This document shows positions 2 through 2,959 of a DNA stretch of 2,959 nucleotides, in pieces; the first letter of the stretch is position 1; the number at the start of each line of letters is the position of its first letter. The position numbers and the translations under genes were made by a program. The stretch is from assembly GCF_003334255.1 (NCBI RefSeq), contig NZ_QOWU01000129.1. One strand, 5' to 3'. The notes beneath the pieces are model-generated. The model saw nothing but the letters and a program-made list of their open reading frames with translations, did no database searches and was not told the DNA's origin. This DNA comes from Escherichia coli (GTDB taxonomy: Bacteria > Pseudomonadota > Gammaproteobacteria > Enterobacterales > Enterobacteriaceae).

Positions 2-841
2 TGGCTTGCGCAGTGCGGGCTGACGGTGGAGCAACTGGCCAGACAGGTGGAGCCGGAATACACACCGGCGCGAAAAGTTCATTTTTACCACTGCGACCAC
101 CGGGGCCTGCCGCTGGCGCTCATCAGCGAAGACGGCAATACGGCGTGGCGCGGGGAGTATGATGAATGGGGCAACCAGCTTAATGAGGAGAACCCGCATC
201 ACCTGCACCAGCCGTACCGTCTGCCAGGGCAGCAGCATGATGAGGAGTCGGGGCTGTACTATAACCGTCACCGGCACTACGATCCGTTGCAGGGGCGGTA
301 TATCACCCCGGACCCGATTGGGTTGAGAGGTGGATGGAATATGTATCAGTATCCGTTGAATCCCATACAAGTGATAGACCCAATGGGGTTAGATGCGATT
401 GAGAATATGACATCAGGTGGACTAATTTATGCCGTATCTGGTGTACCTGGATTGATTGCTGCAAACAGCATTACTAACAGTGCTTACCAGTTCGGTTATG
501 ATATGGATGCTATTGTTGGCGGAGCTCATAATGGGGCCGCCGATGCAATGAGACATTGTTACTTGATGTGTCGAATGACTAAGACATTTGGATCAACAAT
601 AGCTGACGTGATAGGTAAAAATCATGAGGCGGCAGGGGATAGACAAGGTCAGCCAGCTAAAGAAAGAATCATGGATCTTAAAAATAACACTGTCGGTATT
701 GCTTGTGGCGATTTTTCTGCCAAATGTAGCGATGCATGTATTGAAAAATATAACACTGGGCAACTCTTCGGGTTAGATGGTATAAAAGCAGATAATCCAA
801 TAAAAGCAAAGCAAGGGAGTTCAGATGCTTCAAATTATTAG
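2..841 (+). CDS. Rhs-family protein, C-terminal portion (5'-partial; start lies upstream of the window): end of conserved Rhs core plus variable C-terminal toxin domain
   Basis: Frame 2 is open from the window edge (nt 2) to TAG at 839-841; the ORF-track start at 26 is a GTG inside a longer open frame. The translation ([58 protein letters not shown]...[47 protein letters not shown]) matches from memory the conserved end of enterobacterial Rhs core domains, including the YD-repeat-like YDEWGN and the PxxxxDPxGL motif. Possibly rhsE-like; unverified. Confidence 0.9.
362..391 (+). other. Rhs core / C-terminal-domain boundary motif PxxxxDPxGL ([10 protein letters not shown])
   Basis: Direct translation of nt 362-391 gives [10 protein letters not shown]. 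In Rhs and related polymorphic toxins this motif marks the autoproteolytic junction between the conserved core and the variable toxin tip (established knowledge for the family). Confidence 0.85.
392..838 (+). other. variable Rhs C-terminal (CT) toxin domain, ~149 aa, family unassigned
   Basis: Sequence downstream of DPMGL ([149 protein letters not shown]). GC content drops visibly relative to the core segment (by eye, not computed). Position directly after the boundary motif and directly before a small coupled ORF is typical of Rhs-CT toxin domains. Confidence 0.7.
813..819 (+). promoter_or_regulatory. Shine-Dalgarno (AAGGGAG) for the ORF starting at 825
   Basis: AAGGGAG at 813-819, 5-nt spacer (TTCAG), then ATG at 825-827. 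It lies inside the 3' end of the Rhs coding sequence. Confidence 0.6.
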
Positions 842-1307
842 AGGCAAACTTGTCATTTTTTTAATTACCCTTTGTTTATTTGTTGTTTACCTTGGGTTTG
901 ATAACAATTCAAATTCTGACATCGTATTTTATGGACATAAAACACCAAAGAGCGTTGAGATATATCTTTCTGAAAAAAATATTATTTATAAAATAATTAA
1001 TGACCAAAAAATTAGTAGAGGGAATGGTCATTTTATAAGTATAATGGTTAATAATTACAGGACGCACTGTGGAGTGGTTGATATAAATCTTAATTTTTTC
1101 AATGATATTCTTTATAGCGTGCGATTAAAAAACATTAGTAAACTGGAGAATATGGAGTTCTGCGCTACAAAACAACGGGTGTATTTTAGTGATAAAAACA
1201 AGAAGGCTAGTTATAAAATAATTAATTATGGAGACTATTATGATGTTGATTATTATGATAACAATTTGAAAAATGAAGTTTTTGACTGGATTGGTAAATG
1301 GTCATAA
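825..1307 (+). CDS. putative cognate immunity protein of the Rhs-CT toxin; small protein with N-terminal signal-anchor / TM helix
   Basis: 160-codon ORF, ATG 825 to TAA 1305-1307, with a strong SD and a start that overlaps the upstream stop by 17 nt (translational coupling). The N-terminus [32 protein letters not shown] has a positively charged n-region followed by a ~17-residue hydrophobic stretch. The region is extremely AT-rich. Functional call rests on synteny with the toxin, not on recognised homology. Possibly ydcD-like (160 aa) from memory; unverified. Confidence 0.7.
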
Positions 1308-1384
1308 TGAACAACACCAGAAAGAGAAAAATATAAAATACATACAGAAAGACATGAGAGCAAGGGACGGGGCAGGGCAAGATC

Positions 1385-1416
1385 ATGAAAATTGTGATGT
1401 AAATCACGATTTTCAT
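1385..1416. repeat. inverted repeat / hairpin (14-bp arms, 4-nt GTAA loop); candidate weak intrinsic terminator or protein-binding palindrome
   Basis: ATGAAAATTGTGAT (1385-1398), GTAA (1399-1402), ATCACGATTTTCAT (1403-1416). The arms pair along all 14 positions with a single G-T (G-U wobble in RNA) at 1393/1408. It lies 77 nt downstream of the immunity-ORF stop and is followed by CTTTGCTTT. The stem is AT-rich, so a terminator role is uncertain. Confidence 0.45.
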
Positions 1417-1419
1417 CTT

Positions 1420-2640
1420 TGCTTTAACGCCTACAGGTGATCAAAATTTAACCTTTGGAATAACTAAAAAGATAAAAAAGGACGCCAGGTGAGTATTCAA
1501 AGTTTGCTTGATTATATTTCAGTGACCCCTGATATACGACAACAAGGAAAGGTTAAACATAAATTATCTGCTATTTTGTTTCTCACCGTATGTGCAGTAA
1601 TTGCAGGTGCCGATGAGTGGCAGGAAATTGAAGATTTTGGACATGAAAGACTTGAATGGCTAAAGAAATATGGTGATTTTGATAATGGCATTCCGGTCGA
1701 TGACACCATTGCACGCGTTGTGAGTAACATTGACAGTTTGGCCTTTGAAAAGATGTTTATTGAATGGATGCAGGAGTGCCATGAAATCACTGATGGTGAA
1801 ATTATAGCAATAGATGGAAAGACCATAAGAGGCTCCTTTGATAAGGGAAAAAGAAAAGGAGCAATCCATATGGTGAGTGCATTCTCGAACGAAAATGGTG
1901 TTGTACTGGGGCAGGTGAAAACGGAAGCCAAAAGTAATGAGATTACAGCCATTCCAGAGTTGCTTAACCTACTGTATTTAAAGAAAAATTTGATAACCAT
2001 TGATGCTATGGGCTGTCAGAAAGATATCGCTTCGAAGATCAAAGATAAAAAAGCAGATTATCTTCTGGCAGTAAAAGGCAATCAGGGGGAATTACATCAT
2101 GCATTCGAGGAAAAATTTCCTGTAAATGTGTTTTCTAATTATAAAGGCGATTCGTTTAGTACGCAGGAGATAAGTCATGGAAGAAAAGAAACACGTTTGC
2201 ATATTGTCAGTAACGTAACGCCTGAACTTTTGTGATTTTGAATTCGAATGGAAGGGATTAAAAAAGCTTTGTGTAGCATTGTCATTCAGGCAGAAGAAAG
2301 AAGATAAATCAGCAGAAGGTGTAAGCATCCGATATTATATTTCATCAAAGGATATGGATACTAAAGAATTTGCACATGCTATCAGAGCGCACTGGCTGAT
2401 CGAGCACAGTCTTCATTGGGTGTTAGATGTAAAAATGAATGAAGATGCCAGCCGGATAAGAAGAGGAAACGCAGCCTAAATAATATCTGGAATAAAGAAG
2501 ATGGCACTGAATTTATTAAGAGATTGCAAAGACATTAAGGGTGAAGAGGAAAAGAAAGAAGGCTGCGTTAAACACAGGGAAAGATCATCAGAAGTTCACT
2601 TTTTGTACTAAACAATTCGCATTTTATGTTTAAAAATTGA
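1420..2640 (+). mobile_element. degenerate ISAs1-family (H-repeat-like) insertion sequence; element ends NOT mapped, coordinates approximate
   Basis: Inferred from the decayed ISAs1-type transposase gene it contains (1489-2633). Terminal inverted repeats were not identified by eye. Confidence 0.4.
1489..2633 (+). pseudogene. ISAs1-family transposase (H-repeat-associated-protein-like), disrupted by two frameshifts and one in-frame stop
   Basis: Frame 1 (GTG 1489 to TGA 2233-2235) encodes a 248-aa N-terminal part with clear similarity to the second copy at 2719 and, from memory, to E. coli H-repeat-associated proteins (YhhI/YdcC/YbfD type). Motifs include ILFLTVCAVIAGADEWQEIEDFG, YGDFDNGIPVDDTIARVV, IAIDGKT, SNEITAIPELL, ITIDAMGCQKDIA and LAVKGNQG. 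Homology continues in frame 2 from ~2234 ([13 protein letters not shown]...RYYISS...[29 protein letters not shown]), is interrupted by in-frame TAA at 2477-2479, continues (IISGIKKMALNLLRDCKDIKG), then shifts to frame 3 near 2540-2544 (KRKRKKAALNTG...) and ends at TAA 2631-2633. Reconstructed length is ~380 codons. Possible RBS AAGGA at 1477-1481. Confidence 0.85.
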
Positions 2641-2706
2641 GATATTCCTTATTACCTAAAGCTGTTTTTTATTGCTTACACATGATCAAATACTCCTTAC
2701 ATAATT

Positions 2707-2712
2707 AAGGAG
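2707..2712 (+). promoter_or_regulatory. Shine-Dalgarno (AAGGAG) for the transposase ORF starting at 2719
   Basis: AAGGAG at 2707-2712, 6-nt spacer, ATG at 2719-2721. Confidence 0.6.
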
Positions 2713-2718
2713 AACAAA

Positions 2719-2959
2719 ATGGAACTTAAAAAATTGATGGGACATATTTCTATTATCCCCGATTACAGACAAGCCTGGAAAATGGAACATAAGTTATCGG
2801 ATATTCTACTGTTGACTATTTGTGCCGTTATTTCTGGTGCAGAAGGCTGGGAAGATATAGAGGATTTTGGGGAAACACATCCCGATTTTTTGAAGCAATA
2901 TGGTGATTTTGAAAATGGTATTCCTGTTCACGATACCATTGCCAGAGTTGTATCCTGTA
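2719..2959 (+). CDS. ISAs1-family transposase / H-repeat-associated protein, N-terminal 80 codons (3'-partial, runs off window)
   Basis: Not in the supplied ORF track because there is no stop before the window end. My translation: [80 protein letters not shown]. It is open through 2958 and is near-identical, from memory, to the N-terminus of E. coli H-repeat-associated proteins (YhhI/YdcC/YbfD paralog group; the paralog cannot be distinguished from this fragment). Strong SD upstream. Confidence 0.9.

What the first reader, a model, noticed from the sequence alone, without database searches (positions are those of the whole stretch)
1385..1416. Near-perfect 14-bp inverted repeat with GTAA loop between the immunity gene and the IS-type transposase
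ATGAAAATTGTGAT-GTAA-ATCACGATTTTCAT forms a 14-bp stem (one G-U wobble) with a GNRA-type tetraloop in RNA, 77 nt after the immunity stop and followed by a partly T-rich stretch (CTTTGCTTT). Candidate roles are a weak intrinsic terminator or RNA-stability element for the toxin-immunity transcript, a protein-binding palindromic operator, or a remnant terminal structure of the adjacent IS. The stem is AT-rich, so it is not a textbook terminator.
Basis: seen in the sequence. Interest (0 to 1): 0.4.

Follow-up and report, generated by a model that had tools for sequence, protein, structure and literature searches.

The report
CRP-binding palindrome inside an insertion sequence end
The hairpin-like palindrome is real, but it is best explained as a very tight binding site for the E. 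coli sugar-starvation regulator CRP; in-vitro screens had already found it, and it lies inside the left end of a dead insertion sequence rather than in the toxin-immunity cassette.

Summary
The window is the E. coli K-12 RhsE tip: rhsE C-terminus, ydcD, yncO, yncI, then ydcC.

**Observation.** The 14-bp inverted repeat at 1385-1398/1403-1416 is exactly as described. Only 0.2% of shuffled windows contain an equally good one.

**Location.** It lies inside the adjacent insertion sequence (IS). An intact copy in O157:H7 (ISEc26, ISAs1 family, 1305 bp) puts the IS tip at window 1373. The palindrome is therefore IS positions 13-44 and overlaps the terminal inverted repeat.

**Identity.** Its core, TGTGA-N6-TCACG (1393-1408), is a near-consensus CRP operator. 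Two published in-vitro genome-wide screens report exactly this sequence as a CRP site:
- Shimada 2011, genomic SELEX.
- Wang/Stringer/Wade 2026, Footprint-seq, estimated Kd 0.6 nM.

My matrix, built from 39 other sites, scores it above all of them.

**Consequences.**
- The RNA hairpin follows from the operator's two-fold symmetry.
- The terminator reading is weak: the stem is AU-rich, the T-tract varies between strains and is poor in the intact IS, and no 3' end was listed in the one dataset I could search.
- The start codons of the detected small protein YncO lie in the right arm, on the opposite strand.

What CRP regulates here in vivo is unknown. CRP binding is already known; the IS context is a modest addition.

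The parts
1385..1416 (.). 32-bp palindrome: 14-bp arms with a GTAA centre and one T.G position (1393:1408)
   Evidence: The O157 copy is perfect, with C:G at that position.
1393..1408 (.). CRP operator core TGTGA-N6-TCACG, centre 1400/1401. The full 22-bp site is about 1390-1411.
   Evidence: Footprint-seq Table 1 gives 'atTGTGAtgtaaaTCACGatt', Kd 0.6 nM, gene yncI. Shimada 2011 supplement gives the CRP box CGTGATTTACATCACA at 1.52852 Mb in the ydcD>/>ydcC spacer, which is the reverse complement. PWM score 21.3 bits, above all 39 training sites.
1373..1389 (+). Left terminal inverted repeat (IRL) of the ISEc26 remnant, CAGGGCAAGATCATGAA. Its last 5 bp form the start of the palindrome.
   Evidence: In the intact O157 copy, IRL and IRR match at 16 of 17 positions. 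The CAGGG tip recurs in 38 ISAs1-family elements with paired ends (35 distinct left ends).
1373..2574 (+). ISEc26 (ISAs1-family) remnant carrying the yncI transposase pseudogene. PGAP annotates the pseudogene as 1489-2633. The right end is missing because ISEc5 abuts at 2575.
1222..1407 (-). yncO, a 61-aa small protein. The annotated GTG start (1407-1405) and an in-frame upstream ATG (1416-1414) both lie in the right arm. The ORF reads out of the IS across the IRL and runs antisense to the ydcD 3' end.
   Evidence: Annotation. SPA-tag detection by VanOrsdel 2018. ORF list.
1417..1426 (+). T-rich tail CTTTGCTTTA after the hairpin. Positions 1418 and 1420 vary between strains.
1419..1447 (+). 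Weak candidate transposase promoter: -35 TTGCTT at 1419-1424, 17-bp spacer, -10 CAAAAT at 1442-1447. It would place CRP near -53.5. Inferred only.
   Evidence: It falls below the threshold of the promoter scan.
1335..1363 (-). Weak candidate outward promoter in the flanking DNA: -35 TTGCTC at 1363-1358, -10 TATTTT at 1340-1335. It would place CRP at -72.5, a class I spacing. Inferred only.
2575..2959 (+). Left end of ISEc5 (tip CAGGGAAAGATCATCAG) and the 5' part of its transposase gene ydcC, which starts at 2719

Best explanation
The palindrome is a near-consensus, sub-nanomolar binding site for the cAMP receptor protein (CRP). The core is TGTGA-N6-TCACG at 1393-1408, with symmetric A/T-rich flanks. 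It sits at positions 13-44 of the left end of an ISAs1-family insertion sequence (the ISEc26 remnant, yncI). There it overlaps the inner edge of the 17-bp terminal inverted repeat and lies about 88 bp upstream of the transposase start codon.

Shown: the sequence match, CRP binding in vitro, and the position inside the IS.

Inferred: a cAMP-CRP dimer bound here bends the DNA next to the IS tip and sets transcription in the IS leader. One route is modulation of the transposase promoter downstream. The other is class-I-type activation of transcription leaving the IS across its tip, giving the yncO / anti-ydcD transcript. In K-12 the IS is dead and the region is listed as H-NS-bound, so the site may now be largely a relic.
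For: (1) Footprint-seq on naked MG1655 DNA lists 'atTGTGAtgtaaaTCACGatt' with centre 1530492, estimated Kd 0.6 nM, gene yncI. It is the second tightest entry in the table of novel sites with Kd of 10 nM or less. Window coordinate plus 1529097 equals the NC_000913.3 coordinate, so the palindrome centre is 1530497.5.

(2) An independent genomic SELEX-chip study names ydcC as a new CRP target. It gives the box CGTGATTTACATCACA at 1.52852 Mb (U00096.2) in the ydcD>/>ydcC spacer. This is the reverse complement of window 1393-1408.

(3) A position weight matrix built only from the 39 other Footprint-seq sites scores the K-12 allele at 21.3 bits; the best training site scores 20.9. The next best hit in the window scores 6.1. 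No hit of that score occurred in 0.5 Mb of composition-matched random sequence.

(4) All natural alleles keep a strong site: O157 CGTGA..TCACG scores 19.7 bits and TGTGA..TCACA scores 23.0. The two variable positions (1393, 1408) are the outermost half-site bases. [quoted passage not shown] A CGTGA..TCACG site at dtpA has Kd 2.1 nM in the same table.

(5) The site lies inside the IS. The intact O157 ISEc26 is 1305 bp, with IRL CAGGGCAAGATCATGAA and IRR CAGGGCAAGAGCATGAA.

(6) No known RNA family matches the window.
Against: All binding evidence is in vitro on naked DNA. The Footprint-seq authors class the site as novel, meaning more than 500 bp from any of the 308 previously described or predicted sites they used. 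I found no report of in-vivo binding.

No convincing sigma-70 promoter lies at a canonical CRP distance on the transposase strand. The best candidate puts CRP at about -53.5, and the promoter scan found none near the site.

The region is listed as an H-NS-bound 'promoter island', so the site may be occluded in vivo.

The palindrome (32 bp) extends 5 bp on each side beyond the 22-bp CRP consensus, so CRP may not explain all of it.

The site is unique to ISEc26 among 78 ISAs1 loci scanned, and every copy found sits at one and the same junction. There is therefore no independent evolutionary replication of the feature.
Confidence: 0.8

Rival explanations
1. The site binds CRP in vitro but has no selected function. 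It would be a fortuitous or relic high-affinity site in horizontally acquired, AT-rich, H-NS-silenced DNA, carried passively with a dead IS.
For: The IS is a pseudogene in K-12 and in most strains. The region is listed as an H-NS-bound promoter island. No in-phase promoter was found. All 2460 or so genomic copies and all 51 metagenomic copies share one junction, so conservation may be simple inheritance.
Against: A perfect 14+14 palindrome in the intact copy, scoring above 39 bona fide sub-10 nM sites, is not expected by chance. It sits directly beside the terminal repeat, the place where other ISs carry host-factor sites.
Confidence: 0.3
2. It acts as an RNA hairpin on the + strand. In this role it would be a weak intrinsic terminator or 3' stabiliser for the rhsE-ydcD transcript, or equivalently an insulator that stops read-through transcription from entering the transposase gene.
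For: The hairpin energy is -15.3 kcal/mol, z about -6 in context. The loose terminator scan flags it, with 1 found against 0.2 expected. All three natural stem variants keep + strand pairing: C:G, U.G and U:A at 1393:1408, and G.U at 1387:1414. This is weak support, since about 1 in 8 such sets would do so under neutrality.
Against: Only 3 of 14 pairs are G-C, and the stem base next to the tail is A-U/U-A. The tail has 5 of 8 U in K-12, 4 of 8 in about half of the copies, and 3 of 8 in the intact O157 element. The minimum-energy fold pairs CUUUGC of the tail with the IS tip. The Adams 2021 Term-seq supplements list no ydcD, yncO or yncI 3' ends. A left-end hairpin is not a general ISAs1 feature. 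Any near-consensus CRP site forms such a hairpin automatically.
Confidence: 0.12
3. It is a subterminal transposase-recognition or transpososome-architecture element of ISEc26, that is, part of an extended terminal repeat.
For: The left arm overlaps the IRL. Beyond the 17-bp IR, the two ends of the intact IS still align: AAATC-GTG-T-TAAAT...TTTTCAT. The score is reached by 4% of shuffles.
Against: The right end lacks the second half-site (CACGA) and has no palindrome or CRP-like site; the best PWM score there is below 2.2 bits. The similarity is only borderline significant. ISAs1 transposases are DDE enzymes, for which hairpin ends are not a known requirement. Other family members lack the feature.
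Confidence: 0.1
4. It is an FlhD4C2 (flagellar master regulator) binding site.
For: An FlhDC genomic SELEX-chip study lists a peak at 1528470 (U00096.2) in the ydcD>/>ydcC spacer. It assigns this very palindrome, AAGATCATGAAAATTGTGATG TAAATCACGATTTTCATCTTT, as the FlhDC box.
Against: The peak intensity is 11, against a listing cut-off of 10 and a maximum of 54. By my own comparison, the sequence matches the published consensus AAYGSSNNAAATAGCG-N10-12-CGCTATTTNNSSCRTT poorly. MEME would favour any palindrome within the peak. This locus was not among those the paper confirmed by gel shift.
Confidence: 0.04
5. On the minus strand, the hairpin sequesters the yncO start codons and so controls translation of the small protein.
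For: The ATG at 1416-1414 and the GTG at 1407-1405 both lie in the 5' arm of the minus-strand hairpin. The K-12 allele weakens that hairpin, to -10.0 against -16.0 kcal/mol in O157. YncO is detectably made in K-12.
Against: yncO is a chimeric ORF created by the IS insertion: 11 codons lie in the IS and the rest is antisense to ydcD. A dedicated control element is therefore unlikely. The start codon actually used is unmapped.
Confidence: 0.05

Closest known systems
Consensus-type CRP (CAP) operators of E. coli, consensus AAATGTGATCTAGATCACATTT, as at lac and gal and at the high-affinity sites in the Footprint-seq and gSELEX catalogues
   Same: It has a two-fold symmetric TGTGA-N6-TCACx core with A/T-rich flanks. 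Sub-nanomolar in-vitro affinity has been measured for this exact sequence. Natural variation is confined to the least critical outer half-site positions.
   Different: No partner promoter has been identified at -41.5 or -61.5. The site lies inside a mobile element next to its terminal repeat, not in a metabolic gene's promoter. In-vivo occupancy and any regulatory effect are unknown.
Host-factor binding sites at IS/transposon ends: the IHF site next to the IS10/Tn10 outside end, and the DnaA box and Fis site in IS50/Tn5 ends (from established knowledge, not tested here)
   Same: A binding site for a host DNA-bending or global regulatory protein lies within the first 50 bp or so of the element, immediately inside the terminal repeat.
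   Different: The factor would be CRP. I know of no characterised IS precedent for that, and my searches found none. It is present at the left end only, and there are no functional data on transposition.
Rho-independent (intrinsic) terminators
   Same: A stem-loop followed by a partly U-rich stretch. It is flagged by a loose pattern scan.
   Different: The stem is AU-rich with a weak base, and the U-tract is short, interrupted and variable between strains. No mapped 3' end was found.
Left-end inverted repeats of IS10/IS50 that protect against read-through activation ('fold-back inhibition'; from established knowledge)
   Same: An inverted repeat close to the left end of an IS, upstream of the transposase gene. 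It would form only in transcripts entering from outside.
   Different: Here the repeat does not include the transposase ribosome-binding site or start codon, which lie 73 nt downstream of the palindrome's last base.

Membership tests
CRP-cAMP binding site | A 22-bp two-fold symmetric site with a TGTGA-N6-TCACA core | tested here: met
   TGTGA-TGTAAA-TCACG at 1393-1408 matches 9 of 10 core positions. PWM score is 21.3 bits, against 9.9-20.9 for 39 independent sites of 10 nM or tighter. There were no equal hits in 0.5 Mb of random sequence.
CRP-cAMP binding site | Demonstrated binding of purified CRP | not testable with these tools
   Published: Footprint-seq Kd 0.6 nM for this exact sequence, and a gSELEX-chip CRP box at the same coordinate.
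CRP-cAMP binding site | Position in helical phase upstream of a promoter (-41.5, -61.5, -72.5 and so on) | tested here: inconclusive
   On the + strand the best candidate promoter puts CRP at -53.5. On the - strand a weak promoter outside the IS puts it at -72.5. Neither candidate passes the promoter scan threshold, and I could retrieve no TSS data.
CRP-cAMP binding site | In-vivo occupancy and CRP-dependent expression of a target gene | not testable with these tools
   No report was found. The site is called 'novel' relative to 308 known or predicted sites. The region is listed as H-NS-bound.
Intrinsic terminator | A stable, G+C-rich stem-loop | tested here: inconclusive
   The hairpin is stable (-15.3 kcal/mol) but has only 3 of 14 G-C pairs, and the pairs closing the stem next to the tail are A-U/U-A.
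Intrinsic terminator | A run of U immediately 3' of the stem, conserved with the hairpin | tested here: not met
   CUUUGCUU (5 of 8) in K-12, CUUGGCUU (4 of 8) in 27 of 51 metagenome copies, and CCUGGCUU (3 of 8) in the intact O157 IS.
Intrinsic terminator | Transcript 3' ends mapping just after the stem | tested here: inconclusive
   No entries for ydcD, yncO or yncI, nor for coordinates beginning 15304 or 15305, in the held Adams 2021 Term-seq supplements. Expression of the locus may be too low. No supplements were held for the other two datasets tried.
ISAs1-family terminal structure | Lies within the element as delimited by CAGGG...CCCTG terminal inverted repeats | tested here: met
   The IS tip is at window 1373, so the palindrome is IS positions 13-44. 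The IRL/IRR match is 16 of 17 in the intact O157 copy.
ISAs1-family terminal structure | The feature is shared by other family members or by both ends | tested here: not met
   Across 35 distinct elements the mean left-end folding z is -0.41 (not significant). Only ISEc26 and a Legionellales clade have strong hairpins. No CRP-like site occurs in the 73 other ISAs1 loci scanned, nor at the ISEc26 right end.
FlhD4C2 box | Match to AAYGSSNNAAATAGCG-N10-12-CGCTATTTNNSSCRTT together with robust binding | tested here: not met
   The gSELEX peak is 11, just above the cut-off of 10. By inspection, about half of the specified consensus positions match.
Known structured RNA families (Rfam 15) | A covariance-model match | tested here: not met
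   No match at E <= 1 anywhere in the window.

The most novel reading that the evidence does not exclude
ISEc26 carries a functional, portable CRP operator at its tip. Through it the element would couple its transposase expression or transpososome assembly to cAMP, that is, to carbon starvation. It could also turn flanking DNA into a CRP-activated outward promoter; here that promoter would produce the yncO transcript antisense to ydcD. This would make CRP a host factor at an IS end, alongside IHF, DnaA and Fis.
Probability: 0.25. Interest if true: 0.5.

Novelty: already known. Interest (0 to 1): 0.3.

Why it matters
This is one of the tightest CRP sites measured on the K-12 chromosome, yet it has no assigned target. 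Placing it inside the tip of an insertion sequence explains why it sits next to a pseudogene. In O157:H7 the same IS is intact and the palindrome is perfect. The placement also makes a concrete question testable: whether a mobile element uses the host's carbon-starvation regulator to time its own expression, or to drive outward transcription into neighbouring genes. For annotation, it shows that this hairpin after ydcD should not be recorded as the terminator of the Rhs toxin-immunity operon. It also shows that yncO is a chimeric ORF created by the IS insertion.

Tried and rejected
**A family-wide left-end hairpin in ISAs1 elements.** A first look found hairpins 15-45 nt inside the tip in Vibrio, Shewanella and Legionellales elements. 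Across 35 distinct elements, however, the left-end folding z-scores average -0.41 (t-test p = 0.19) and do not differ from the right ends. Rejected as a general feature.

**A matching CRP site at the right end of ISEc26.** None exists. There is only a borderline extended end similarity that lacks one half-site.

**CRP sites in other ISAs1 elements.** None among the 73 other ISAs1 loci (78 scanned in all).

**Independent insertions of ISEc26, to confirm the boundary and show that the palindrome travels with the IS.** None were found:
- E. coli genomes almost always hold one copy, always next to ydcD.
- The close relatives among GTDB species genomes share the same junction.
- All 51 metagenome matches have the identical left flank.

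The boundary therefore rests on the IRL/IRR match and the family's CAGGG tip.

**A ydcD locus without the IS.** The one partial hit is an IS1 insertion with a deletion, which is uninformative.

**Compensatory change as evidence for RNA structure.** The series C:G (311 genomes), T.G (2108) and T:A (2-3) preserves + strand pairing. These positions are also the least constrained in the CRP core, and the counts reflect clonal lineages. The series therefore cannot separate the models.

**Transcript-end and TSS data.**
- The Adams 2021 supplements had nothing for this locus.
- No supplements were held for two other papers.
- A guessed PMC id for Thomason 2015 was not held.

**Rfam.** No match.

**Literature on ISEc26.** Only inventory mentions were found.

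Full report
**Where the window comes from**

The window matches E. coli K-12 MG1655 at 99.9% identity over its full length. In RefSeq annotation it covers:
- the C-terminal part of the rhsE pseudogene (to 841);
- ydcD (825-1307, + strand);
- the small-protein gene yncO (1222-1407, - strand);
- a frameshifted ISAs1-family transposase, yncI (1489-2633, + strand);
- the start of ydcC, an ISEc5 transposase (from 2719).

Adding 1529097 to a window coordinate gives the NC_000913.3 coordinate. This follows from the published yncO position 1530319-1530504.

**Checking the observation**

The repeat is exactly as described: ATGAAAATTGTGAT (1385-1398), GTAA, ATCACGATTTTCAT (1403-1416). It has 13 of 14 complementary positions, and the exception is 1393 T opposite 1408 G.

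As RNA, the 32-mer folds at -15.3 kcal/mol on the + strand. On the - strand, where the odd position is an A.C mismatch, it folds at -10.0. In context the + strand fold scores z = -6. Only 0.2% of 1000 dinucleotide-preserving shuffles of the window contain an equally good hairpin.

**The palindrome belongs to the insertion sequence**

In O157:H7 the same rhs-tip/ydcD/yncO block is followed by an intact 'ISAs1-like element ISEc26 family transposase' and then by an unrelated gene, yafV. Reading both ends of that copy gives:
- left end: CAGGGCAAGATCATGAA...;
- right end (reverse complement): CAGGGCAAGAGCATGAA....

This is a 16-of-17 terminal inverted repeat that delimits a 1305-bp element. The CAGGG tip recurs in the 38 ISAs1-family elements for which I could pair ends.

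In the window the IS tip is therefore at 1373, and the palindrome is IS positions 13-44. Its first five bases are the last five of the terminal repeat.

The K-12 copy is a remnant (1373-2574). ISEc5 begins at 2575, and the last 108 bp or so of ISEc26 are absent from the surrounding 15 kb.

I could not find an independent insertion of ISEc26:
- E. coli genomes almost always carry a single copy, always next to ydcD.
- The close relatives among GTDB species genomes share the same junction.
- All 51 metagenome matches have the identical left flank.

**What the palindrome is**

The core reads TGTGA-TGTAAA-TCACG (1393-1408). This is the CRP consensus TGTGA-N6-TCACA with one change, flanked by symmetric A/T-rich sequence. 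The literature held here shows that this was already found experimentally, twice.

- Shimada et al. 2011 (genomic SELEX-chip) list ydcC among newly identified CRP targets. Their supplement gives the box CGTGATTTACATCACA at 1.52852 Mb in the ydcD>/>ydcC spacer. That is the exact reverse complement of 1393-1408 at the expected U00096.2 coordinate.
- Wang, Stringer and Wade (bioRxiv, January 2026; Footprint-seq on naked genomic DNA) list 'atTGTGAtgtaaaTCACGatt'. They give centre 1530492, estimated Kd 0.6 nM and associated gene yncI. It is the second tightest entry in their table of novel sites with Kd of 10 nM or less.

As an independent check I built a weight matrix from the 39 other sites in that table:
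- The K-12 sequence scores 21.3 bits, above every training site (range 9.9-20.9).
- The next best hit in the window scores 6.1.
- 0.5 Mb of composition-matched random sequence gave none as high.

**Natural variation**

Among 2462 complete E. coli genomes with the site, the 1393:1408 pair has these states:

| 1393:1408 | Genomes | Note |
|---|---|---|
| T.G | 2108 | K-12 type |
| C:G | 311 | O157 type; the palindrome is perfect, and the IS is intact in the O157 copy examined |
| T:A | 2-3 | the palindrome is perfect |

A T:A copy also occurs in a contig from the species-genome collection.

All three states keep a strong CRP score (19.7-23.0 bits). The two variable positions are the outermost base of each half-site. 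The Footprint-seq authors found this the least important position for binding. A CGTGA..TCACG site at dtpA has Kd 2.1 nM in the same table.

The same series also preserves + strand RNA pairing through a wobble intermediate. So does a C-to-T change at 1414 in an O121 strain. That is three transitions out of three, about 1 in 8 by chance, and they occur in clonal lineages. The data therefore cannot separate operator from RNA structure.

**The terminator reading**

The loose pattern scan does flag the hairpin plus tail as terminator-like. Against this:
- The stem has only 3 G-C pairs in 14.
- The pairs next to the tail are A-U/U-A.
- The minimum-energy fold pairs part of the tail with the IS tip.
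- The tail itself varies: CTTTGC in K-12, CTTGGC in about half of all copies, and CCTGGC in the intact O157 element.
- The held supplements of the Adams 2021 3'-end map contain no entry for ydcD, yncO or yncI. This locus may simply be too poorly expressed to register.

Any near-consensus CRP site is a palindrome and will fold as RNA. The hairpin therefore needs no separate explanation. I keep a weak terminator/insulator role at about 0.12.

**Is it a family feature of ISAs1 ends?**

A first scan suggested hairpins at a similar place in Vibrio, Shewanella and Legionellales elements. Across 35 distinct elements, however:
- Left-end folding z-scores average -0.41, which is not significant, and do not differ from the right ends.
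- Only ISEc26 (z = -5.0) and a Legionellales clade stand out. One member of that clade, L039, has an 18/19 stem and z = -6.7.
- None of the 73 other ISAs1 loci scanned has a CRP-like site upstream of its transposase gene.
- The ISEc26 right end has none either.
- The two ends of ISEc26 do align a little beyond the 17-bp repeat (score reached by 4% of shuffles), but the right end lacks the second half-site.

A role as a transposase-recognition element is therefore possible but weakly supported.

**What CRP might do here (inferred)**

I found no strong sigma-70 promoter nearby. With relaxed criteria there are two candidates:
- On the transposase strand: -35 TTGCTT (1419-1424) and -10 CAAAAT (1442-1447). 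This puts CRP near -53.5, which is not a canonical activating position.
- On the opposite strand, just outside the IS: -35 TTGCTC (1363-1358) and -10 TATTTT (1340-1335). This puts CRP at -72.5, a class I spacing.

The second candidate would drive transcription out of the IS, antisense to ydcD. Three further facts bear on this:
- The region is listed as an H-NS-bound 'promoter island'.
- ydcD-yncO is listed among overlapping convergent transcript pairs.
- YncO was detected as a chromosomally SPA-tagged protein.

The annotated GTG start of yncO (1407-1405) and an in-frame ATG (1416-1414) both lie in the right arm. Only the first 11 codons lie inside the IS, and the rest runs antisense to ydcD. 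yncO is thus an ORF created by the insertion.

None of this establishes a regulatory output. In-vivo occupancy is untested as far as I could find.

**A second, weaker in-vitro claim**

An FlhDC genomic SELEX study lists a peak of intensity 11 (cut-off 10) at this spacer and assigns the same palindrome as an 'FlhDC box'. By inspection the match to the FlhDC consensus is poor. I rate this low.

**Verdict**

- The best-supported identity is a very high-affinity CRP operator that lies inside the left tip of the ISEc26 remnant.
- CRP binding to this exact sequence is already in the literature (2011 and 2026).
- New here: the IS context, the perfect palindrome in the intact O157 copy, its uniqueness within the ISAs1 family, the weakness of the terminator reading, and the chimeric nature of yncO.
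- The biological output of CRP binding remains open.

Noticed in passing
window 1222-1416, - strand: yncO is a chimeric ORF. Its start codon(s) and first 11 codons lie inside the ISEc26 left end. The remaining 50 or so codons lie in flanking DNA, the last part antisense to the 3' end of ydcD (1222-1307). The protein was nevertheless detected by SPA tagging. Which start codon is used is unmapped.
   Followed up: partly
window 2575; L001 8575: The ISEc26 remnant is cut off by the left tip of ISEc5 (CAGGGAAAGATCATCAG). The last 108 bp or so of ISEc26, including its right inverted repeat, are absent from the 15-kb K-12 region. The PGAP pseudogene span 1489-2633 therefore runs about 60 bp into ISEc5.
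   Followed up: partly
L002 (O157:H7) 1752-5338, compared with L001 (K-12): The same rhs-tip/ydcD/yncO/ISEc26 block sits at a different chromosomal place in O157:H7 (next to yafV-ivy-fadE) than in K-12 (RhsE, next to ydcC-pptA). The ydcD-IS junction is identical in about 2460 genomes and 51 metagenome contigs. The IS seems to travel as part of the Rhs tip module rather than transposing on its own.
   Followed up: partly
window 1381-1384 and 1438-1441: There are two GATC (Dam) sites. One lies inside the terminal inverted repeat, directly abutting the palindrome; the right end has GAGC at that position. The other lies immediately before the candidate -10 CAAAAT. GATC at this IRL position also occurs in several other gammaproteobacterial ISAs1 elements. 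This recalls the Dam control of IS10/IS50, but it was not tested.
   Followed up: no
L039, L038, L031 (Legionellales MAG contigs), first 50 nt or so of the IS: An unrelated ISAs1 clade has its own long left-end hairpin that includes part of the terminal repeat. L039 has an 18/19 stem at -28.8 kcal/mol, z = -6.7. In L031 the hairpin is followed by TTTTTTT. This could be a true read-through terminator in that clade.
   Followed up: partly
window 1385-1402, + strand: The left arm plus the loop spells a five-codon mini-ORF, ATG AAA ATT GTG ATG TAA. It is probably incidental to the palindrome.
   Followed up: no
window 1420 and 1418: The K-12-lineage T at 1420 (G in about half of all copies) improves both the U-tract after the hairpin and the candidate -35 (TTGCTT against TGGCTT). 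O157 additionally has C at 1418.
   Followed up: partly
L003-L006; hit H121 (NZ_CP069930.1): Contigs attributed to Sporosarcina, Planococcaceae, Flavobacterium psychrophilum and Bacillota MAGs carry this E. coli junction at near identity. So does a 2.7-kb 'Klebsiella oxytoca plasmid'. These are most likely E. coli contamination or mis-binning.
   Followed up: no
window 797-1409 (U00096.2 1527917-1528529): A published 'promoter island' with H-NS binding covers ydcD up to the palindrome. An RpoN-holoenzyme gSELEX peak is also listed upstream, between yncH and ydcD.
   Followed up: no
L086 (strain CH427): In one strain an IS1 is inserted just after ...AGAAAGAC (window ~1352), about 20 bp outside the ISEc26 tip. 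The palindrome and the ISEc26 left end are lost there.
   Followed up: no
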